Below are positions 1 through 29,865 of a stretch of 41,211 nucleotides of DNA, piece after piece (position 1 is the first letter of the stretch; each line of letters opens with the position of its first letter). A model generated the notes under the pieces. That model was not told the DNA's origin, did no database searches, and was given only the letters and a program-made list of their open reading frames with translations. Location of the stretch: IMG/VR virus record IMGVR_UViG_2698536518_000008, positions 1-41,211 of that record; one strand, written 5' to 3'. A program made the translations under genes and the position numbers. Origin of the DNA: a virus. Lineage: Duplodnaviria; Heunggongvirae; Uroviricota; Caudoviricetes.

Positions 1-1194
1 ATGATCACCGACACAAAGCTCAGGAAGGCGCTCGGCAAGAAAAGAGATGATATCGAGATTATTTCTGATTCGCACGGGCTCAACGCCAGAATCAGCCAGG
101 CCGGAAAAATATCATTTTTCTATCGGTATCGCTGGGCCGGTAAAGCGGTAAAACTCAATGTTGGTGATTATCCTGCAATGAGTATCACCCAGGCAAGAGA
201 GCGTCGCCAACAATTCAGAAACTGGTTAACTGAGGGACTGGATCCGCGAGAGCAGGTGAAGCTGGATAAGCAGACCCGACAGGAAGCGATGTCCGTTGCC
301 GAAGCGTTCAATTACTGGATTGAAAGGCACTGTATCGCTAACGGGCTAGTTAAAGTCGATTACTATCGCCAGGTGTTTGAGAAACATATCGCCGAACCGA
401 TGAAGAATGTCAAAGTCGATAACACAGCGAAAATGCACTGGATCAACGTCTTCGATTCTATAGAAAGCAGGGTGATGGCTCATTACATGCTTTCGCTGTG
501 CAAACGGGCGTTTAGGTTCTGCGTTAACAGAAGTGTGATCGCCTCAAACCCACTCGAGGGATTACTGCCATCTGATGTCGGGCAAAAGCCTAAAAAGAGA
601 ACTCGCAGGATGGACGATGACGATCTGCGCAAAATCTATCAGTGGTTGAAAAGCCATATGTCGATAGAGTCCGTTTTCCTGGTGAAATTTATTATGCTTA
701 CCGGATGCCGTACGGCTGAGATTCGACTTAGTGAGAGATCATGGTTTCGATTGGATGATAATGAGTGGGTCGTGCCTGCGGGCAGTTATAAAACTCGGGT
801 ACATATTAGAAGGGGACTCTCAGACGCCGCCGTTAACCTGGTCAGAAATCACCTCAAGAAAATAAACACCAATCACCTGGTGACTTCACAACGTAAAATT
901 GATGGCGGGATCAAAGATTCGCCCGTTCATTCACCTGTGGCATCCAATTACGCCCGTTCTATTTGGAATGGAACAGGTATGGCAGAGTGGTCGCTTCATG
1001 ATATGAGGCGGACGATAGCCACAAATCTCTCTGAGTTAGGTTGCCCGCCGCACGTAATTGAAAAGCTGCTCGGGCATCAGATGGTGGGGGTTATGGCGCA
1101 TTACAACCTTCATGACTATATCGATGATCAGAAACACTGGCTCCGCGTTTGGCAGAGCCATCTTGAAGAGATCATCGGAGAGCCCTTCAGTTAA
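1..1194 (+). CDS. int: Tyrosine-type site-specific integrase
   Basis: 397-aa ORF; C-terminal catalytic signature of tyrosine recombinases (R in TGCRTAEI, H-x-x-R in LHDMRRT, Y in AHYNLHDY); convergent with adjacent Xis-like gene; window begins at its ATG so the att site upstream is not visible. Confidence 0.9.
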
Positions 1195-6353: not shown

Positions 6354-7022
6354 TCATTCATTCTTTGGTATGCCGCAAAGGGCGTTTAGCGTTTCAACGG
6401 GAATGGCAAGTGCGGTGCTGGTCGCTTCACGGCGTTCCACCTCAGGCAAATATGGCACTGCATCAGGCCACATCTCAGCCAGTTTTTTAACAGTTGAGAC
6501 TTTGGTTAGAGCACCTTTAACCTGCAATTGGAAGGCATCAACTTCATCGTAAAGAACGTTGATGGTTACCGTCGATTCAGTGAGTCGGTCGTGTAATTTT
6601 CCAACTTTCTTCAGCGTGCTGTAACTTTCAGGAACGAAACCCGAATCAATTACAGGCGCGAAGGAAGCTCCGAAGAACAGGTCGCTTTCAAGATCGTGCT
6701 TACCAATATGTTTTCCACGGTGGAGATAGCGATGATCCAAACCGTTCCTGGCTAATTCGTGATACTCACCATTAATAATGACCTTTAAAATTGCAGTTTT
6801 AGCGCCGACCTGCATCTTGATGAAGGAGTTATCTTTGAAATCTTCCCGAGCCTTAGTTATTTGCTCATCGCTAGTGTTTTCCTGCTTGAGCAATGCCTGT
6901 CGAATTTCTTCAACAATTTTCGCCCTCTCATTAACCGCAGCTTTCGCTTTCTCAAACAATGGGGATGCGAGAAGCAGGTTATGGCATAGCTGATTTTTAA
7001 TTTCGTTGTTAAGACGAATCAT
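6354..7022 (-). CDS. Unknown protein (222 aa), AT-rich accessory gene in pL-proximal (N-equivalent) position
   Basis: ORF with SD (GAGGGT) 6 nt upstream; visibly AT-richer than flanking genes; first gene downstream of the OL operator cluster and ~400-nt leader; no motif I can recognise. Confidence 0.55.
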   Translation of the reverse strand: MIRLNNEIKNQLCHNLLLASPLFEKAKAAVNERAKIVEEIRQALLKQENTSDEQITKAREDFKDNSFIKMQVGAKTAILKVIINGEYHELARNGLDHRYLHRGKHIGKHDLESDLFFGASFAPVIDSGFVPESYSTLKKVGKLHDRLTESTVTINVLYDEVDAFQLQVKGALTKVSTVKKLAEMWPDAVPYLPEVERREATSTALAIPVETLNALCGIPKNE

Positions 7023-9422: not shown

Positions 9423-10314
9423 CGTATCCAATTTAGCCGAAGCCAGAGAGGCCAGAAGGCTCCAGAAACCGCGCACGAATGACGGTAAGGGGTTTGCCTT
9501 GCTGCACCGTAAAATTATGGATGTGCCGTTCTACAAGGACGCTGAGGCGGCTCATTTATGGGTTCACATGCTCCTGCGTGCTAATCACGAACAGACACTG
9601 GTATCTACTGATGTTGGCGATGTGATCTGCGAGCGCGGAGAGTTCATCACCGGGCGAAACACACTGGCAATGGAAACGGGTTTGACCGCTGATCGCGTTA
9701 AATCCCTTCTCCGTAAATTCCAGAATCTGGGCATGATCACCACCAAATCGAACAACCGTTTTACTGTTCTAAAAGTGGTCAAATATGACGAATATCAGTC
9801 AAATTTTTGTCCAGCAGATGTCCAGCCAGCGTCCAGCCCAAACATAGTCGTACCAATGCCTGCGGAGGTGGAGTGTCCAGCCGATGTCCAGCCAGTGTCC
9901 ACAGATAACAATATATTAAATAACTTACTACCTAACGGTAGTAAGTATGTCGCAAATGACCAGAAACCCGCTGAAGAGAAAAAGTCTCGTTTGTCATGCG
10001 ATGAAGTATGGCAATGCCTGAAAGACGAACTGCCTGAAGCACGGGGATGGAGATGCCTCACTGATGAGCGACGCAATCTGATCCGCACATTCTGGGGTAA
10101 GGCTAATAAGATTGCCCGCAACCTGGACGGCAAGCCGATGGATATGGACGGTTTCAGAAGCTATCTGCGTTACATCGCTCAGAACTGCCGCTGGATGCTT
10201 GAAGACCGACCAGACCAGAAGTCTGGGAAGACCTGGCGCCGTATGAAATTCGATAAGTTCCTGACCGAAAAGCTCTACATCGAAGTGCGCGAGGGGGATC
10301 GTGATGACCGCTGA
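9409..10314 (+). CDS. Replication initiator (lambda O-like) containing the probable origin
   Basis: 301 aa; position before DnaB-type helicase; N-terminal DNA-binding-like region; gene body contains phased iterons, AT-rich tract and inverted repeat (see repeat feature); true start may be GTG 9415. Confidence 0.65.
   Translation: MAVGNVSNLAEAREARRLQKPRTNDGKGFALLHRKIMDVPFYKDAEAAHLWVHMLLRANHEQTLVSTDVGDVICERGEFITGRNTLAMETGLTADRVKSLLRKFQNLGMITTKSNNRFTVLKVVKYDEYQSNFCPADVQPASSPNIVVPMPAEVECPADVQPVSTDNNILNNLLPNGSKYVANDQKPAEEKKSRLSCDEVWQCLKDELPEARGWRCLTDERRNLIRTFWGKANKIARNLDGKPMDMDGFRSYLRYIAQNCRWMLEDRPDQKSGKTWRRMKFDKFLTEKLYIEVREGDRDDR
9809..9946. repeat. Putative replication origin: six 11-bp-phased GTCCAGCC-type iterons + AT-rich tract + 9-bp inverted repeat
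   Basis: GTCCAGC(C/A) copies start at 9809, 9820, 9831, 9875, 9886 and degenerate GTCCACAG at 9897 (all multiples of 11 bp apart); AT-rich 9905-9922; perfect IR ACTTACTAC-N6-GTAGTAAGT at 9923-9946. Confidence 0.6.
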
Positions 10315-11737
10315 TTTCATGGCTGTACCACAAAACCTCGAAGCAGAGCAGAGCGTTATCGGTGGCCTGCTGCTGGATGATGACAACAGCGAGCGAGTCC
10401 AGAAGGTTCTGGCGATGCTCAAGCCTGAATCGTTCTACAGCCGACCTCACCAGCTGATCTTTGCCGAGATGCGCCAGATGTTCCGCGACAACAAGCCAGT
10501 CGATGGTCTGACATTGTTCGACGCGCTCGAAGGCAAAGGGCTCGCGGAGCAGGTAGGTGGCTTTGCTTACCTGGCGGAGATCGCCAAGAACACTCCCAGC
10601 GCTGCAAACATCGTGGCATACGCTGCGTCAGTCCGGGAAGCCGCAATGGAGCGCTACGGTATCAGCCGCCTGACCGAAGCTACTGAGCTGCTGTATTCCC
10701 GCAATGGCATGAGCGCCACGCAGAAGTACGAGGCCATTCAGGGTATTTTCACCCAGCTCGCAGACCATTCAAAAACCGGTAGTCGCCGTGGGTTGCGGTC
10801 GTTCGGCGAGGTTATGGATGACTGGGTAGCAGATCTGGAGAAACGCTTTGACCCTTCAGGCGAACAGCGCGGCATGAGCACCGGCATCCCGTCACTCGAC
10901 CGGCTGCTGGCGCCGAAAGGTCTGGTTAAAGGCTCTCTGTTCGTGATTGGCGCAAGGCCAAAGATGGGCAAGACAACCCTGTACGGTCAGATGGCGATCA
11001 ACTGCGCGGTTCGTGAGAAAAAGCCAGCGCTGATTTTCAGCCTCGAAATGCCGGGCGACCAGATCCTCGAAAAACTGGTTGGTCAGAAGTCTGGAGTTAA
11101 CCCGAGCATTTTTTACATGCCAGCCACGGATGACGCCGATGACCAGTACCAGGGCGATTACGACGGCGACTTTAAGAAGGCGATCGCCACCGCCGGGCGA
11201 TTGAGTGAAATCGACATGCTGTACATCGACGATACTCCTGGCCTGTCACTGGCGCACATCGTTAGCGAAAGCCGCCGAATCAAGCGCGAGAAGGGCTGCG
11301 TAGGAATGATTCTGGTTGACTACCTGACTCTAATGACCGCCGAAAAAGCCGACCGTAATGACCTGGCCTACGGGATGATCACCAAAGGTCTGAAGAATCT
11401 CGCCAAAGAGCTTGGCTGCGTCGTCGTGCTGCTGACCCAGCTCAACCGCGAACTGGAGAAGCGAGTGAATAAACGCCCGTTGCCGAGCGATTCCCGCGAC
11501 ACAGGGCAGATTGAGCAGGACTGCGACTACTGGGTTGGTATCCACCGGGAAGGTGCTTTCGATGACAGCGTGCCGCCGGAAGAAACCGAGTTAATACTGC
11601 GACTCAACCGCCACGGCAGTACCGGAACGGTTTATTGCAATCAGAACAACGGGGCAATTTACGACACAGACCAGCAGGCCGCCGCCGCAGAACGCCGCGG
11701 GCGTGAGCAGCAGCCGAAAAAGAAAGGGGGGTTCTGA
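10301..11737 (+). CDS. Replicative DNA helicase (DnaB family)
   Basis: 478 aa; Walker A GARPKMGKTT, conserved DnaB C-terminal RecA-like domain motifs (LIFSLEM, ILVDYLTLM, VVLLTQLNRELEKR). Confidence 0.9.
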   Translation: MMTADFMAVPQNLEAEQSVIGGLLLDDDNSERVQKVLAMLKPESFYSRPHQLIFAEMRQMFRDNKPVDGLTLFDALEGKGLAEQVGGFAYLAEIAKNTPSAANIVAYAASVREAAMERYGISRLTEATELLYSRNGMSATQKYEAIQGIFTQLADHSKTGSRRGLRSFGEVMDDWVADLEKRFDPSGEQRGMSTGIPSLDRLLAPKGLVKGSLFVIGARPKMGKTTLYGQMAINCAVREKKPALIFSLEMPGDQILEKLVGQKSGVNPSIFYMPATDDADDQYQGDYDGDFKKAIATAGRLSEIDMLYIDDTPGLSLAHIVSESRRIKREKGCVGMILVDYLTLMTAEKADRNDLAYGMITKGLKNLAKELGCVVVLLTQLNRELEKRVNKRPLPSDSRDTGQIEQDCDYWVGIHREGAFDDSVPPEETELILRLNRHGSTGTVYCNQNNGAIYDTDQQAAAAERRGREQQPKKKGGF

Positions 11738-12081
11738 TGACCATAACAATTCGTGGGCAGATTCTTGCAGCCCTGCGTAATAACCCGGGCCTGAATAGTG
11801 CTTTCATTGCCAGGATGATCGGCATGACCACCAAAAAGATTTCCGGCCCGTTAAGTACGTTGTTTGCAGACGGCCTGATCGAGTTCGAAGGCAAGCACGG
11901 ACAGCGGCTTTATCGGCTGACCGATTACGGCATGAAATACGCACCAGAAACAATCCCGGCTATGCCGAAGGGAAATTCGAAGCTGGTGCAGCGTACAGAG
12001 GCAAACGTGATCTGCCAGGAGTGCCGGAAAAGTCCGGCTATGAAGCGAGTATTGATGGTTTGGGGGAGGGTAGGGGTATGA
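11737..12081 (+). CDS. Hypothetical protein, possible winged-helix DNA-binding
   Basis: 114 aa; ATGA overlap with helicase stop; LAALRNNPGLNSAFIARMIGMTTKKISGPLSTL resembles wHTH. Confidence 0.45.
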   Translation: MTITIRGQILAALRNNPGLNSAFIARMIGMTTKKISGPLSTLFADGLIEFEGKHGQRLYRLTDYGMKYAPETIPAMPKGNSKLVQRTEANVICQECRKSPAMKRVLMVWGRVGV

Positions 12082-12356
12082 AAATTTTAAAACTGAGTCA
12101 GCAGGCAACAGTTTCTCGTCCGGTCGATTCGATTATCGGTTGGGAAGAGAAAACAATCTACGAGCCAGTTTTTGTTGTGGCTGAGCATATTGAGTCGTTT
12201 TTGTTTGCTGGAGTAAGCTACATCAAAATGACCTCGGGCGAGAAGATAGTTGTACGAGAAACACCTGAGGAAATTCTCGCGCTGCTTGGCGTCGTTGTTC
12301 AAACGGATAGCCTGAAAACATGGGGTGAAATTGCGCAGAAGGAGGCCGCCCAATGA
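12078..12356 (+). CDS. Hypothetical protein (92 aa from MKILKL)
   Basis: Track ORF 12021..12356; likely start ATG 12078 overlapping upstream stop (ATGA) and preceded by G-rich SD-like GGGGAGGGTAGGGG. Confidence 0.4.
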   Translation: MKILKLSQQATVSRPVDSIIGWEEKTIYEPVFVVAEHIESFLFAGVSYIKMTSGEKIVVRETPEEILALLGVVVQTDSLKTWGEIAQKEAAQ

Positions 12357-12721
12357 GCAACATCGACAAACAGGCGCTGCGCCTAACAGCAGAAAAGGCA
12401 AAAGATAACTTCATGCCGAACTTTATGGTCCCCACTCGGGATGTGCTGGCGCTGCTTGATGAGCTGGAAGCCGCAGAGAAGCGCATAGCAGAACAACGTG
12501 AGTATTACGAAGGCGTTATTGCTGATGGAAGTCGTCGGATAGCAGAGCTGGAGGCGAAGATTGAAACATCTGACAAATTGCAGGATAGCGCGTTTCGCCA
12601 TGGCCTTCAGCATGGTTTTAGCTACGGACAGACAAACGACCAGGCTAGATATGAGCAATGCATAGCAGCATATAGCCCGAAAAAAATCGCCGATGGTATC
12701 ATCACTAAGGTGGGGGGGTAG
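12353..12721 (+). CDS. Ead/Ea22-like protein (N-terminal module)
   Basis: 122 aa; begins MSNIDKQALRLTAEKAKDNF, the hallmark N-terminus of Ea22-like proteins; coiled-coil centre; ends at in-frame TAG. Confidence 0.6.
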   Translation: MSNIDKQALRLTAEKAKDNFMPNFMVPTRDVLALLDELEAAEKRIAEQREYYEGVIADGSRRIAELEAKIETSDKLQDSAFRHGLQHGFSYGQTNDQARYEQCIAAYSPKKIADGIITKVGG

Positions 12722-12724
12722 GGT

Positions 12725-12889
12725 ATGGCTGAATTTACGAAACAGAGCATTATCGAAGACCTGAAAGCCTCGACGCAGAACGCCAGTGGTATGTTTGAAA
12801 TCAGCGAGGACACCATCTGCGCGTTGATGTCCATGCTCACTAGCACAGCACCACAGTTACCGCAGCCAGCGGTGTTATCAGTGTCTTAG
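12725..12889 (+). CDS. Small ORF (54 aa) in same frame as flanking Ea22-like and DUF551 ORFs
   Basis: Hand translation MAEFTKQSIIEDLKASTQNASGMFEISEDTICALMSMLTSTAPQLPQPAVLSVS; separated from each neighbour by a single TAG plus one codon. Confidence 0.3.
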   Translation: MAEFTKQSIIEDLKASTQNASGMFEISEDTICALMSMLTSTAPQLPQPAVLSVS

Positions 12890-12892
12890 GGC

Positions 12893-13261
12893 GTGCTTAA
12901 AAGCCTCTTACCCGATGTTGAGAAGTCCGAGTTCTGGTTTGAGCATAATGGGAAAATCTTTTTTGAAGGTGTGAGGTTTAACAATGCGGTATTTGAAGCC
13001 TGCCGCGCCGCCATGCTTCAGTCGTTCGGTAATTCCGAACAACTCAACTCTCCGGTGATTCAGGATGGTTGGGTGGCTTGCGTTGAGCGGATGCCGGAGA
13101 AAGCTGATGAAGTTTTGTGTGCCAAAGAATTCGATGGTCCAGGTGATTGGCGCCAAAAGGTTGGTTATTACTTAGCGGGGAAATGGACGGTGTATAGCGC
13201 ATCATGGACGCCGACCCACTGGATGCCACTGCCAGCAGCACCGCGGCAGGAGGTGAAGTGA
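12893..13261 (+). CDS. DUF551-like phage protein (C-terminal THWMPLP motif)
   Basis: 122 aa; track start is GTG; C-terminal WTPTHWMPLPAAP resembles the DUF551 signature common in lambdoid nin/ea regions. Confidence 0.55.
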   Translation: MLKSLLPDVEKSEFWFEHNGKIFFEGVRFNNAVFEACRAAMLQSFGNSEQLNSPVIQDGWVACVERMPEKADEVLCAKEFDGPGDWRQKVGYYLAGKWTVYSASWTPTHWMPLPAAPRQEVK

Positions 13262-13299
13262 CGAACAAGATGACGAGAGTTACCATAGATATAAATCAA

Positions 13300-13320
13300 G
13301 GCCCTTAGGGGCCTTTTATT
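13300..13320 (+). terminator. Short intrinsic terminator
   Basis: GGCCC-ttag-GGGCC hairpin followed by TTTTATT. Confidence 0.45.
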
Positions 13321-13354
13321 CTATGATAAACGGACTTTGTTTGAGAGTGACGCC

Positions 13355-13681
13355 ATGAAGCCCAAGAAGCTAAATGCTGAGCAGCAATACAAATTAGACC
13401 TTGAATTGGTCAAGAAGAAGCCTGCGAACCGGACCGAGGCAAAAGCCCATTTGGCCGCACAGTTACGGATCAGCAAGTACAAGACGCAGACCTCTTCCAA
13501 AATCCGCGTAGGCAGTTTTAAGGGGCGGAAGAAGGTACATTTCAGTAAGGCGGAACAAGCAGCCAGGGCAGCACTAAATAAAGCAAATGCCATTAGATTT
13601 TCCGAAGGGGAGGTCGAGTCCGTCGATACGGATAGAATCTCAGAAAGTAACAAACGCTGGCGCGGGAGAACTGCTGACTAA
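13355..13681 (+). CDS. Hypothetical basic protein
   Basis: Track ORF 13337..13681 uses TTG; more likely ATG 13355 ([11 protein letters not shown]...); lysine-rich. Confidence 0.4.
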
Positions 13682-13935
13682 TGTCTGACTGGAATATTGC
13701 TGCAAAGCCGCAGGAAGAACGCGACAAGGTTAATGTTGACCTGGCAGCCTCCGGCGTGGCCTACAAAGAGCGCCTGAATATGCCGGTTATCGCCGAGCAG
13801 GTAGCTCGTGAGCAACCAGAGCATCTACGAGAGTATTTCATGGATCGCGTGCGGCACTATCGCGAGCAGAGCGTTGCATTGCCTAAGGCATCTGATCCTC
13901 GCTACATTGAAATGACTGAGCAAAATGCAAAATAA
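13681..13935 (+). CDS. Hypothetical protein
   Basis: 84 aa; TAATG overlap with upstream ORF. Confidence 0.4.
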
Positions 13936-17925: not shown

Positions 17926-18708
17926 ATGGAACCCAGGGGTAATTACCTTATAAAACCATTGAGAGATCTAGGTTTTGGTGCTTTTGGTCGTGTGGAAAAG
18001 GTTGAGGTATATAACACCGATAGCCATCTTTGTGGTGAGTATGCAAGGAAAGTTCTTTCAGTTAATCCTGCGTTATTAAATGAATATTTTAGTGTAGATG
18101 ACTGGAAGCGTCGGTTTAAGCGTGAAGTCGACTACCAAGCCAAGTGCAATCATGATCATGTTGTAAGAATTTGCATACATCATTTAAGCATAGAAAACCC
18201 TTGGTTTGTGATGGAGTTGGCAGAAACAGACCTAAGAAGCGAACTAAAAGCGGGCGTTCTTTCTGATGATGAAAAGCTGTTAGCCCTGAAGATGGTGTTT
18301 GAAGGCGTTAAGTATATCCATGACGCTGGGTTGCTTCACAGGGATCTGAAACCTGAGAATATCCTCAAGTTTGAAGGAGGCTGTTACAAAATTTCCGATT
18401 TCGGCCTAATCAAAAGTATGGATTCGAAAGCCCAATCTGATTTTTTGTCAGGTGTACTTCAAAACAAAAAAATGGGTATTGGCACTGCTAAGTACATGTC
18501 TGACGAGGCTAAACGCGGAGTATATACACAGAAATCAGATATTTACGCGCTAGGTGTTATTACTAGTGAAATGAATCTATCTCATATTGACGGTATAACG
18601 ACATTAATCGATAAATCAGCGGCATTTACGCCTCGTTCAAGGTACGATTCTGTCACTGAGATGATAGACATTCTTGATGATATTGTTGCAGCAAGGAGAG
18701 GCAAATGA
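17926..18708 (+). CDS. Hanks-type (eukaryotic-like) Ser/Thr protein kinase, catalytic domain only
   Basis: 260 aa; Gly-loop GFGAFG (aa 16-21), catalytic Lys in YARKV (K42), HRDLKPEN catalytic loop (aa 138-145, nt 18337-18360), DFG (158-160), SDIYALG subdomain IX; AT-rich codon usage unlike flanking phage genes. Confidence 0.85.
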   Translation: MEPRGNYLIKPLRDLGFGAFGRVEKVEVYNTDSHLCGEYARKVLSVNPALLNEYFSVDDWKRRFKREVDYQAKCNHDHVVRICIHHLSIENPWFVMELAETDLRSELKAGVLSDDEKLLALKMVFEGVKYIHDAGLLHRDLKPENILKFEGGCYKISDFGLIKSMDSKAQSDFLSGVLQNKKMGIGTAKYMSDEAKRGVYTQKSDIYALGVITSEMNLSHIDGITTLIDKSAAFTPRSRYDSVTEMIDILDDIVAARRGK

Positions 18709-19496
18709 TTGAGTTGTTGAGCTGTGGTGCATTTTCATGCCCCAAAGATCATGGTCGTGAAAACCAAGATGCGTTACTACTCCCGCAACAATGTGATGAT
18801 GGCTTCATTTTTGCTATTGCTGATGGTGTCGGGTCTTATGCTGGTGCTAAAGAAGCAGCGCAAGCTGCAGTAGACTATGTCGCAACTCATAAACTGAAAG
18901 CCAGTTCTGATCCTGATGCGATACTTAGTGGTGCAAAAGACAAAATATCTGAACTATCTCAGTTCGATTCAGAGAAGCGCAAGGCCGCAACAACATTATC
19001 CTACTGTGTTGTACATGGTGAGTTACTTAATGTAATCCATGTAGGCGATACTCGGGTGTATGTAAAAATTGATAACAAATTAAAACTACTAACGAAAGAT
19101 CACTCACAGCATCAAGAGTTGCTCGACGATGGGTTATATACGAAAAGGGAATTGGAAGACTTACCAGGAAAGAACATGCTTACTGCAGCTATTTCTAAAG
19201 TCCTGCCAATAAAATTTCAGCATATTTCGTTACCCCTGTCAGATTTGATGGACCATGACGGTGTTGTTTCTCTTTTTCTGATGTCCGATGGAGCCCATCA
19301 CTTCTGGGAACGCCGCCCGCGTTTTTCTCCCAATACATTGAAGAATGCTACTAACTTTTCAACCAATCTTTTTAAGCGGATACAGCGCGCTGGACCAACT
19401 GACGATCATTCACTGATTGCTGTGAATTTAAAGATAAGCCTGAAAAATGAAGAATCACTTAACCCATTTAAACTACATAAGCCATTGGGTAATTGA
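18705..19496 (+). CDS. PP2C/PPM-family Ser/Thr protein phosphatase
   Basis: 263 aa; metal-binding motifs FAIADGVGSYAGA, HVGDTRVY, KDHSQ and LMSDGAHH typical of PPM phosphatases; ATGA overlap with kinase stop. Confidence 0.8.
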   Translation: MIELLSCGAFSCPKDHGRENQDALLLPQQCDDGFIFAIADGVGSYAGAKEAAQAAVDYVATHKLKASSDPDAILSGAKDKISELSQFDSEKRKAATTLSYCVVHGELLNVIHVGDTRVYVKIDNKLKLLTKDHSQHQELLDDGLYTKRELEDLPGKNMLTAAISKVLPIKFQHISLPLSDLMDHDGVVSLFLMSDGAHHFWERRPRFSPNTLKNATNFSTNLFKRIQRAGPTDDHSLIAVNLKISLKNEESLNPFKLHKPLGN

Positions 19497-28914: not shown

Positions 28915-29277
28915 ATGGAATTCACCGTTCGTTACCCCGAGTTCGCCAGTGTTGCCCCTGCTCGAATAGAAGGGGCGCTACAGGATGCAGCAAACCAGAT
29001 GAGCCGCAAAGTATGGAACAAGCTCTATGAGCAAGGGCTTCATGCTTTAGCGGCACATCTTCTTTATGCCTCAGGTGCGTTAACCCCTTCCGGAAATTCC
29101 AGCGGCAAAACTGCCCAGTCAATAACCAGTCGTTCAGTGGCTGGATTGTCTTTAGGGTATTCCGCCCCGGATGCCGGGTTTGGTGCAAATCACGATGGTT
29201 ATGCCTCCAGTTCTTACGGCCAGGAATACATCAGGTTACGTAAGCTGGTGGGCGTCCACGTGCTGGCGATTCGTTAG
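28915..29277 (+). CDS. Head-tail connector / head completion protein (putative)
   Basis: Track ORF 28810..29277; likely start ATG 28915 (MEFTVRYPEF...). Confidence 0.4.
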   Translation: MEFTVRYPEFASVAPARIEGALQDAANQMSRKVWNKLYEQGLHALAAHLLYASGALTPSGNSSGKTAQSITSRSVAGLSLGYSAPDAGFGANHDGYASSSYGQEYIRLRKLVGVHVLAIR

Positions 29278-29283
29278 GGCGGA

Positions 29284-29865
29284 GTGTTTCTCATGACGCC
29301 AGAAGAAACCTTAAGACTAACCACGGAATATCTGAAGAACCTTCAGGCGATGAAAACCCATTACGTCGCCGTAGGTTTGCCAGCGGGCAAGGTGGGAAAT
29401 AAAACCCACGATGACGGAACATCGATAATTGAGATCGGGGCGGTTCACGAGTTCGGTGCTGAAATCGATCACCCTGGCGGGACGGGGTATATGGCAACCG
29501 GTGGAAAAGCTACGTTTACCCGCAAGACCTTCATGGGTCCGGTTAGCGGATTTACAGCGGCTCACAAGATAACGATTCCTGAACGATCCTTTCTTCGCGC
29601 TCCTTTCACCCTCAAAAAGTCGGAAATTAACCGGGCAATCGAAAAGGCCTGTGAAGCCGTAGGCTCCGGGCGTATGGATGCTGACACCGCATTAAATTTG
29701 ATAGGCGCGACGGCGCGAAATATCAGCGTGAAGGCCTTTGAGATTGCCGGGTATGGCACGTGGTCAGATATCACTGCTGCAACTAAAAAGGCTAAAGGAT
29801 CGTCTGCGCCGTTAATTGATACAGGCGCCCTGCGTGGTGCCATAACGTGGGAGGTTCGTAAGTGA
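29284..29865 (+). CDS. Hypothetical virion morphogenesis protein
   Basis: 193 aa in head-tail joining gene block. Confidence 0.4.
   Translation: MFLMTPEETLRLTTEYLKNLQAMKTHYVAVGLPAGKVGNKTHDDGTSIIEIGAVHEFGAEIDHPGGTGYMATGGKATFTRKTFMGPVSGFTAAHKITIPERSFLRAPFTLKKSEINRAIEKACEAVGSGRMDADTALNLIGATARNISVKAFEIAGYGTWSDITAATKKAKGSSAPLIDTGALRGAITWEVRK

What the first reader, a model, noticed from the sequence alone, without database searches (positions are those of the whole stretch)
12353..13261. Three consecutive ORFs in one reading frame separated only by single in-frame TAG codons (Ea22-like ... DUF551)
ORFs 12353-12721, 12725-12889 and 12893-13261 are all in the same frame; each junction is TAG + one Gly codon + start (TAG GGT ATG and TAG GGC GTG). 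Read through, they would form one ~300-aa protein with an Ea22-like N-terminus and a DUF551-like C-terminus. This could be two amber nonsense mutations in a formerly fused gene, modular gene boundaries created by recombination, or programmed amber read-through.
Basis: seen in the sequence. Interest (0 to 1): 0.45.

Follow-up and report, generated by a model that had tools for sequence, protein, structure and literature searches.

The report
Amber-broken DUF551 prophage gene
The three in-frame ORFs are really two prophage accessory genes, an Ea22-like gene and a DUF551 gene, and a single G-to-T change has put a premature stop codon in the second; this is ordinary gene decay, not programmed read-through.

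Summary
ORFs 12353-12721, 12725-12889 and 12893-13261 share one frame and are joined by TAG GGT ATG and TAG GGC GTG. The two junctions have different origins.

Junction 2 (TAG 12887-12889) is a nonsense mutation. Phage HK225 gp57 and an IMG/VR contig match the window for 176 and 452 nt around it, differing only by G instead of T at 12887 (GAG, Glu). Unbiased pattern scans gave 12 of 12 GAG. Sixty-three homologue clusters read through this point as one polypeptide (52 Glu, 11 Asp). The 'GTG start' of ORF3 has no Shine-Dalgarno sequence and is a Val codon in relatives.

Junction 1 is a true gene boundary. It has a strong Shine-Dalgarno sequence in a G7 run, 32 of 33 homologue clusters start at MAEFTK, and close relatives place the two genes out of frame. 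Its in-frame state is chance: 7 of 33 tight junctions in this window are in frame.

The amber allele is real. It occurs in at least 13 contigs from at least 9 samples and in three phage backgrounds, all at least 99.9% identical, so it is young. The host is E. coli, and the window carries no tRNA gene. Interest is low.

The parts
12353..12721 (+). Complete Ead/Ea22-like gene (122 aa), ending in TAG 12719-12721. It is a separate gene, not part of the broken one.
   Evidence: Pfam Ead_Ea22 scores 38.9 bits against a cut-off of 27. The start has a strong SD (dG -11.7). The identical 122-aa protein is on 17 contigs and is named 'ead/Ea22-like family protein' in E. coli and Enterobacter hormaechei records. 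The same gene precedes intact DUF551 genes in L028-L030 and L023.
12708..12724 (+). Junction 1: AGGTGGGGGGG TAG GGT. It holds the Shine-Dalgarno sequence for the DUF551 gene (G7 run 12712-12718) inside the last codons of the Ea22-like gene, then the stop and a 3-nt spacer.
   Evidence: Anti-SD pairing is dG -11.8 against a background of -2.85 +/- 2.6. The junction is identical in L023 and L027-L030, where the downstream gene is intact. E. coli relatives have TAGGGATATG with a 4-nt spacer, which puts the genes out of frame. P0126 shows a one-base phase variant. P0029/L024 lacks five bases here relative to the window and fuses the two genes.
12725..12886 (+). Codons 1-54 of the DUF551 gene (N-terminal 'module A', MAEFTK...; the start of 'module B' lies from about 12846).
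   Evidence: Module A lies at the N-terminus in 32 of 33 homologue clusters that have it. The window is identical to L023 over 12570-13021 except at base 12887.
12887..12889 (+). Premature amber codon TAG. T12887 is the mutated base; relatives have G, giving GAG (Glu).
   Evidence: It is the only mismatch in 176 nt against HK225 gp57 and in 452 nt against L023. Scans gave 7 of 7 IMG/VR and 5 of 5 metagenome hits with GAG. Of 63 homologue clusters that span the site, 52 have Glu and 11 have Asp.
12890..13261 (+). Codons 56-178 and the TGA stop of the DUF551 gene, now downstream of the amber codon. The DUF551 domain maps to about 13067-13243. The 'GTG start' at 12893 is an internal Val codon.
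   Evidence: Pfam DUF551 scores 49.7 bits against a cut-off of 22, over residues 59-117 of ORF3. There is no SD before GTG 12893 (dG -3.4). Only 2 of 76 clusters that carry this segment begin near here, and one of them is the amber allele itself. The segment is a mosaic: 12846-13021 matches HK225 gp57 at 99.4%, and 13063-13320 matches the E. coli L6-21 DUF551 gene at 98.4%.
13298..13323 (+). Terminator-like hairpin (AAGGCCCTTAGGGGCCTT) followed by a T-rich tail, just after the DUF551 stop.
   Evidence: Found by the consensus scan. HK639 annotates a terminator at the equivalent position after its homologous gene. Its function here is inferred.

Best explanation
The region holds two genes of an E. 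coli lambdoid (phi80-integrase type) prophage, lying between the replication genes and ninB. These are (i) an intact 122-aa Ead/Ea22-like gene (12353-12721) and (ii) a 178-codon DUF551 gene (12725-13261).

A single G-to-T transversion at 12887 turned Glu codon 55 (GAG) of the DUF551 gene into an amber stop. Translation of that gene now ends after 54 residues, so the normal product with its C-terminal DUF551 domain is lost or strongly reduced. ORF3 is an ORF-finder and annotation artefact: the next in-frame GTG is a Val codon of the original gene and has no ribosome-binding site.

The upstream TAG GGT ATG junction is the ordinary, tightly packed boundary between the two genes. The Shine-Dalgarno sequence of the second gene lies in the G-rich end of the first, and this probably couples their translation. 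That boundary happens to be in frame in this lineage.

Shown: the base change, the continuity of the gene in relatives, the RBS difference between the two junctions, and the spread of the allele. Inferred: loss of function, the low cost of the mutation (an accessory gene of unknown function), and translational coupling at junction 1.
For: Junction 2:
- HK225 gp57 is one 281-aa ORF containing ...PQLPQPAVLSVSEGVLKSLLPDVEKSEF... It matches window 12846-13021 at 175 of 176 nt, and the only mismatch is G/T at 12887.
- IMG/VR locus L023 matches window 12570-13021 except at the same base. It encodes an intact 262-aa DUF551 protein behind the same Ea22-like gene and the same junction 1.
- L028-L030 carry the same upstream genes (99- or 114-aa, 92-aa and 122-aa products) followed by one intact 180-aa DUF551 gene.
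- Pattern scans with N at the critical base gave 7 of 7 GAG (viral contigs) and 5 of 5 GAG (metagenomes), in at least 5 different protein contexts.
- Among the top 120 homologue clusters, 63 span the site (52 E, 11 D), and 30 carry modules A and B in one protein. No cluster has module A alone apart from the amber allele's own 54-aa ORF2.
- SD strength is -11.7 for ORF1 and -11.8 for ORF2, against -3.4 for the ORF3 GTG (background -2.85).

Junction 1:
- 32 of 33 clusters start at MAEFTK.
- Relatives have a 4-nt spacer or a one-base phase variant.

The allele is real and circulating. The exact ORF3 is on 12 contigs and a 1-aa variant on 1 more, from at least 9 samples. These are 99.9-100% identical to the window over 3-4.3 kb and sit next to three different replication/immunity modules.
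Against: - No intact copy of exactly this mosaic (module A + module B + SFGNSEQLNSPVIQDGW linker + this DUF551 domain) was found, with Glu or with any single-base revertant residue, in an exact look-up of about 15 billion proteins. The immediate ancestor is therefore inferred from parts, not observed whole.
- The allele has persisted through at least one module exchange. That is compatible with neutrality but also with the split being tolerated or useful.
- Loss of the C-terminal product is not shown. A GTG lies 3 nt after the stop, and natural stand-alone DUF551 proteins of 107-150 aa exist, so a reinitiated fragment could be functional.
- The host genome could not be checked for a suppressor tRNA.
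Confidence: 0.9

Rival explanations
1. A split but still functional gene. After termination at TAG 12887-12889, ribosomes reinitiate at GTG 12893, three bases downstream. The locus would then produce a 54-aa N-terminal peptide plus a 122-aa DUF551 protein resembling natural short DUF551 proteins. This accepts the amber mutation as the origin but denies loss of function.
For: - A start-capable GTG lies 3 nt after the stop.
- Stand-alone DUF551 proteins of 107-150 aa with nearly the same C-terminal domain are common.
- The allele occurs in at least 3 phage backgrounds and at least 9 samples.
- Reinitiation after nonsense codons is established for lacI and T4 rIIB (general knowledge, not tested here).
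Against: - There is no Shine-Dalgarno sequence before GTG 12893 (dG -3.4, equal to background).
- All amber copies are at least 99.9% identical, so persistence reflects youth, not demonstrated selection.
- The only substitution inside ORF2/ORF3 among amber copies is non-synonymous (E79Q in the DUF551 domain), while the other four in that locus are synonymous. With n = 1 this is weak, but it points to relaxed constraint.
- A 54-aa module-A-only product occurs in no other homologue.
Confidence: 0.12
2. Programmed or suppressor-dependent amber read-through. One or both TAG codons would be partly decoded, giving a full-length DUF551 protein of about 178 aa, or an Ea22-DUF551 fusion of about 300 aa, alongside the short products.
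For: - Both stops are TAG and both are followed by GG.
- TAG is a rare stop in this window.
- Proteins that combine Ead_Ea22 and DUF551 exist: P0063 and P0102, Ea22_V2 of Stx phages (PMC10834534), and one fusion across junction 1, P0029.
Against: - The junction 2 stop is not conserved: 12 of 12 unbiased hits and 63 clusters have a sense codon there.
- The sequence around it is identical to GAG alleles for 176-452 nt, so there is no allele-specific stimulatory element.
- Relatives put ORF1 and ORF2 in different frames, so a read-through fusion cannot be conserved.
- The window has no tRNA gene.
- The known fusions join the domains through other linkers, not through this junction.
Confidence: 0.03
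3. Two amber mutations in a formerly single three-part gene (Ea22-like + module A/B + DUF551).
For: One cluster (P0029, 9 contigs) has an Ea22-like N-terminus fused directly to module A (...FWCGGMDEFTKQ...).
Against: - Junction 1 has a strong SD and an ATG.
- 32 of 33 clusters begin at MAEFTK.
- The same TAG GGT ATG junction precedes intact DUF551 genes in L023 and L027-L030.
- Relative to the window junction, the P0029 junction lacks five bases, consistent with loss of one GGGTA copy. The fusion therefore looks derived, not ancestral.
Confidence: 0.03
4. Sequencing or assembly error at 12887.
For: It is a single-base difference from relatives.
Against: The same T is present in 13 contigs from independent isolate assemblies (GCA_001575885.1, GCA_041727315.1), ENA metagenomes and Logan assemblies of different runs.
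Confidence: 0.01

Closest known systems
Intact DUF551 genes of lambdoid phages and prophages (HK225 gp57 YP_007112190.1; E. coli WP_113255288.1 and WP_000807438.1; clusters P0009, P0010, P0014, P0023)
   Same: They share the same N-terminal module (MAEFTK...ICALMSML), the same middle module (APQLPQPAVLSVS-E-GVLKSLLPD...ACRAAMLQ, up to 100% identical), the same C-terminal DUF551 domain, and the same position after an Ea22-like gene in the early-right/nin region.
   Different: In the window the gene is interrupted at codon 55 by TAG. The particular combination of linker and DUF551 domain was not found intact anywhere.
Lambda Ea22 and the mosaic Ea22 variants of Stx phages (Ea22_V2 carries a DUF551 C-terminal domain; PMC10834534)
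   Same: ORF1 has the Ead_Ea22 signature (the MSNIDK N-terminus and the LALLDELEAAEKRIAE coiled-coil segment). The family is a known mosaic of portable modules, and Ea22 plus DUF551 in one chain is a described architecture.
   Different: Here Ea22-like and DUF551 are two genes with their own start signals, and they lie to the right of the replication genes, not in the exo-xis region. The pro-lysogenic function shown for lambda and Stx Ea22 was not tested for this protein.
Nonsense (amber) pseudogenes in prophage accessory genes, with possible reinitiation as described for lacI and T4 rIIB nonsense mutants (general knowledge)
   Same: A single-base change creates a premature stop, an in-frame start-capable codon lies nearby, and the gene is non-essential.
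   Different: Nothing differs in kind. Whether reinitiation occurs here is untested.
Programmed stop-codon read-through in phages (for example the Q-beta A1 protein, UGA read-through; general knowledge)
   Same: An in-frame stop is followed by a long open extension.
   Different: The stop is not conserved in homologues, there is no dedicated context, and the extension is simply the remainder of a gene that is continuous elsewhere.

Membership tests
Pfam PF13935 Ead/Ea22-like (ORF1) | Score above the curated gathering threshold | tested here: met
   ORF1 scores 38.9 bits against 27 (E = 1.6e-9), but only profile positions 98-139 of 139 are matched, the coiled-coil end. Sources name the identical protein 'ead/Ea22-like family protein'.
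Pfam PF04448 DUF551 (ORF3 / reconstructed gene) | Score above the curated gathering threshold over the whole domain | tested here: met
   ORF3 scores 49.7 bits against 22, covering profile positions 1-67 of 68. NCBI names the identical 122-aa product 'DUF551 domain-containing protein [Escherichia coli]'.
Intact modular DUF551 gene (module A + module B + DUF551 in one ORF) | One uninterrupted reading frame from MAEFTK to the DUF551 C-terminus | tested here: not met
   The window has TAG at codon 55. Relatives are uninterrupted: 30 clusters have A and B in one chain, and 63 span the site.
Independent gene starting at GTG 12893 (ORF3 as annotated) | Its own ribosome-binding site, and homologues that start at the same place | tested here: not met
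   SD pairing is -3.4 kcal/mol, equal to background. Only 2 of 76 clusters carrying this segment start near it, and one is the amber allele itself.
Ordinary coupled gene boundary (junction 1) | An SD within about 4-10 nt of an ATG, and homologues that begin at that ATG | tested here: met
   dG is -11.8. Homologues begin there in 32 of 33 clusters. The identical junction lies upstream of intact genes in L023 and L027-L030.
Programmed stop-codon read-through | The stop codon is conserved at the same position across diverged homologues | tested here: not met
   0 of 12 unbiased pattern hits have TAG. At the site, 52 clusters have Glu and 11 have Asp. TAG copies are all at least 99.9% identical to each other.
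Programmed stop-codon read-through | A suppressor tRNA supplied by the phage or the host | tested here: inconclusive
   No tRNA gene lies in the 41-kb window.

The most novel reading that the evidence does not exclude
The amber allele is not a dead gene but a selected split. It would yield a 54-aa module-A peptide plus a reinitiated or read-through DUF551 product in a fixed ratio. That could explain why it persists in several phage backgrounds and why the intact parent of this exact mosaic is absent from databases.
Probability: 0.04. Interest if true: 0.4.

Novelty: already known. Interest (0 to 1): 0.08.

Why it matters
The biological importance is small. A non-essential prophage accessory gene of unknown function has a recent nonsense mutation, and current annotation reports its two halves as separate proteins (WP_249506726.1 'hypothetical protein' and WP_061359063.1 'DUF551 domain-containing protein'). 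The practical value is as an annotation correction and as a caution. In the tightly packed, mosaic early regions of lambdoid phages, runs of in-frame ORFs separated by single stops arise both from ordinary gene boundaries and from point mutations, and a comparison with relatives separates the two in minutes. If the minority reading were true (a maintained split or read-through), it would give a natural handle on the function of the DUF551/Ea22 module family.

Tried and rejected
- The genome-contig scan (species-representative genomes) for the 26-nt pattern around the TAG found nothing. It is uninformative, because prophage content of single representatives is sparse.
- Megablast against 5,426 complete E. 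coli genomes found no genome with at least 80% of the region. Only mosaic pieces matched, so the allele frequency there is effectively 0.
- A PDB sequence search with the reconstructed 178-aa protein gave no hit at E <= 1. PADLOC gave no defence-family hit for ORF1 or the reconstructed protein. PHROGs gave only 'unknown function' families.
- An exact look-up of the reconstructed intact protein with E, Q, K, Y, W, L or S at the stop found none of them in the collection.
- A window-wide search for other in-frame stop-separated ORF pairs looked for signs of a general amber-suppression lifestyle. The one other in-frame TAG case between candidate genes (29275) is an ordinary boundary after a full-length DUF4054 gene, so that idea was rejected.
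- A selection test among amber copies was not possible: there are only 0-5 substitutions per 3-4 kb.
- Structure prediction, fold search and RNA-structure tools were not used. The question was settled by sequence comparison, and the sequence around the TAG is identical to sense-codon alleles.

Full report
**1. The observation**

Reading the sequence, listing ORFs and translating 12353-13261 in one frame confirm the description. The three ORFs are 12353-12721 (122 aa, ATG), 12725-12889 (54 aa, ATG) and 12893-13261 (122 aa, GTG). They share one frame and are separated by TAG GGT and TAG GGC.

Pfam places ORF1 in Ead_Ea22 (38.9 bits, cut-off 27; only the coiled-coil end of the profile) and ORF3 in DUF551 (49.7 bits, cut-off 22; whole domain). 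ORF2 matches nothing. PHROGs gives only families of unknown function.

**2. Context**

The window begins at the ATG of a phi80-type integrase. The same integrase lies next to opp-cls-kch in E. coli assemblies. NCBI records carrying the identical ORF2 and ORF3 products are E. coli.

The three ORFs lie between a DnaB-type helicase gene (10301-11737) with two small genes after it, and a DNA polymerase III theta homologue, NinB, NinE, YbcO and RusA. This is the variable accessory stretch to the right of the replication genes of a lambdoid prophage. A terminator-like hairpin follows ORF3 at 13298-13315. The window has no tRNA gene.

**3. Junction 2 is a point mutation inside a gene**

- Megablast against phage records showed only short mosaic matches. 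One of them was decisive. HK225 gp57 is a single 281-aa ORF containing ...APQLPQPAVLSVSEGVLKSLLPDVEKSEFWFEHNGKIFFEGVRFNNAVFEACRAAMLQ.... It matches window 12846-13021 at 175 of 176 nt. The alignment shows the one mismatch is G in HK225 against T12887 in the window, that is GAG (Glu) against TAG.
- An IMG/VR contig (L023) matches the window from 12570 to 13021 except at that same base. This stretch covers the end of ORF1, junction 1, all of ORF2, junction 2 and the first 43 codons of ORF3. L023 encodes one intact 262-aa DUF551 protein.
- Loci L028-L030 have the same three upstream genes (products of 99 or 114, 92 and 122 aa) followed, after the same 3-nt spacer, by one intact 180-aa DUF551 gene.
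- A homologue search with the reconstructed 178-aa protein returned 1119 hits. Of the best 120 clusters, 63 run through the junction as one chain (52 Glu, 11 Asp). Thirty contain the ORF2-like and ORF3-like modules together. Only two begin near the junction, and one of those (P0002) is a 1-residue variant of the amber allele itself.
- Scans with a 26-nt pattern carrying N at the critical base gave 7 of 7 GAG in IMG/VR and 5 of 5 GAG in JGI metagenomes, in at least five different protein contexts.
- GTG 12893 has no Shine-Dalgarno sequence. Anti-SD pairing is -3.4 kcal/mol against a window background of -2.85 +/- 2.6, whereas ORF1 and ORF2 have -11.7 and -11.8.

ORF2 plus ORF3 is therefore one DUF551 gene of 178 codons with a GAG-to-TAG mutation at codon 55. 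'ORF3' is the remainder of that gene, and its apparent start is an internal Val codon.

**4. Junction 1 is a normal gene boundary**

- The ATG at 12725 is preceded by AGGTGGGGGGG, a strong SD embedded in the last codons of ORF1.
- Thirty-two of 33 homologue clusters that contain the ORF2-like module start with it (MAEFTK...).
- The identical TAG GGT ATG junction precedes intact DUF551 genes in L023 and L027-L030.
- Its phase is not conserved. Three E. coli prophages have GGGG(A/G)GTAGGGATATGGCTGAG, a 4-nt spacer that puts the two genes in different frames. A variant of ORF1 (P0126) ends ...KVGGVGYG, which is what a one-base phase change would give, with the stop then overlapping ATGGCTGA.
- One cluster (P0029, 9 contigs) fuses an Ea22-like gene to the module. 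Its DNA reads GGGGGTATGGAT where the window has GGGGGTAGGGTATGGCT. It thus lacks five bases relative to the window, consistent with loss of one GGGTA copy, which makes the fusion look derived.
- In-frame neighbours are common in this window: 7 of 33 tight same-strand junctions, including two other 3-nt spacers. The other in-frame TAG junction, at 29275, follows a DUF4054 gene that matches its profile end to end.

The in-frame state of junction 1 is therefore chance.

**5. The amber allele is real but young**

The exact ORF3 product is encoded on 12 contigs, and a one-residue variant on a 13th. Sources include two NCBI isolate assemblies, ENA gut metagenomes and Logan assemblies. All carry TAG.

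These copies match the window at 99.9-100% over 3-4.3 kb starting exactly at 11737. Upstream of 11737, L010 and L011 have O/DnaC-type replication genes and different repressors instead of the window's helicase-type module. The allele has therefore passed through at least one module exchange, which rules out sequencing error.

Divergence among copies is 0-5 substitutions. The single change within ORF2/ORF3 is non-synonymous (E79Q in the DUF551 domain), while the other four in that locus are synonymous. This is too little for a selection test.

No intact protein with exactly this module combination exists in the 15-billion-protein collection, with Glu or with any single-step revertant residue. 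The best full-length intact hit is 74% identical because of a different module A.

**6. Mechanism and consequences**

Shown: one transversion created a premature amber codon, and the gene is continuous in relatives.

Inferred: translation stops after 54 residues and the DUF551 domain is not made, or is made only at a low level. The gene is dispensable. It is an accessory gene of unknown function. DUF551 also occurs in the cryptic-prophage protein YfdS and in Ea22_V2 of Stx phages, and Ea22 itself favours lysogeny (PMC10834534 and PMC4776307).

A minority possibility is termination-reinitiation at GTG 12893. It would give a 122-aa protein similar to natural short DUF551 proteins of 107-150 aa. 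Against it stand the absence of an SD and the absence of any other homologue with module A alone.

Programmed read-through is contradicted by three findings: the stop is not conserved, the flanks are identical to sense-codon alleles, and the phase of junction 1 varies.

**7. Comparison with known systems and novelty**

ORF1 is a member of Ead/Ea22-like, and ORF2+ORF3 is a nonsense-interrupted member of the mosaic DUF551 family. Published work already describes these genes as mosaics of portable modules, including Ea22+DUF551 fusions.

Nothing here is a new kind of feature. The result is an annotation correction: two database proteins are halves of one broken gene.

**8. Verdict**

Confidence is 0.9 and interest is low at 0.08.

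Noticed in passing
window 12708-12727; L002-L004 about 1500-1515; L024 about 2740-2765: The Ea22-like/DUF551 boundary sits on a G7 homopolymer and a GGGTA-GGGTA direct repeat. Relatives differ here by one base (4-nt spacer; the P0126 tail VGYG) or by five bases (the P0029 fusion). The boundary therefore behaves as a slippage-prone joint that shifts the relative frame of the two genes or fuses them.
   Followed up: partly
window 12338-13320 compared with L001-L007 and P0001-P0120: The Ea22/DUF551 genes are extreme mosaics. Similarity switches partner at short conserved linkers (MSNIDK..., LALLDELEAAEKRIAELEA, APQLPQPAVLSVSEGVLKSLLPD, ACRAAMLQ, GNSPVIPDGW, THWMPLPAAPQQE). These look like preferred recombination points inside coding sequence.
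   Followed up: partly
window 11737 (start of the 114-aa winged-helix-like gene): There is a sharp module boundary here. From 11737 rightwards, L010 and L011 match the window at 99.97-100% for at least 3 kb. Leftwards they carry O/DnaC-type instead of DnaB-helicase-type replication genes, and different repressors.
   Followed up: partly
window 13681-13935 (+): A phage-borne homologue of DNA polymerase III subunit theta (Pfam E = 6e-35) lies in the nin-side accessory region. It is also present in HK639 and in E. coli L6-21 prophages.
   Followed up: no
window 12078-12356 (+): A 92-aa ORF has a sub-threshold FlbD (flagellar/swarming) Pfam match (22.6 bits against 24.7) and a strong match to PHROG 8458 ('flagellar protein', 4e-27). 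Its start overlaps the preceding gene's stop as ATGA, within a GGGGAGGGTAGGGGTATGA joint that resembles junction 1.
   Followed up: no
window 17926-19496 (+): A eukaryotic-type Ser/Thr protein kinase (260 aa) and a PP2C phosphatase (263 aa) overlap by 4 nt. They lie downstream of the Q-type antiterminator gene, in a moron-like position.
   Followed up: no
window 6354-7022 (-): A 222-aa protein with a full-length Nmad5 (nucleotide modification associated domain 5) match lies beside the repressor gene.
   Followed up: no
window 29275-29286: This is another in-frame TAG junction (cgt TAG ggc gga gtg), between a DUF4054 gene and a 193-aa ORF. DUF4054 matches its profile end to end, so it is an ordinary boundary.
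   Followed up: yes
window 13298-13323: A terminator-like hairpin with a T-rich tail lies directly after the DUF551 stop. HK639 annotates a terminator at the equivalent position.
   Followed up: partly
window 1-1194: The window starts exactly at the ATG of a phi80-type integrase (99.5% identical to mEp237 and HK225). The identical integrase is indexed in more than 15,000 collection blocks and sits beside opp-cls-kch in E. coli assemblies.
   Followed up: partly
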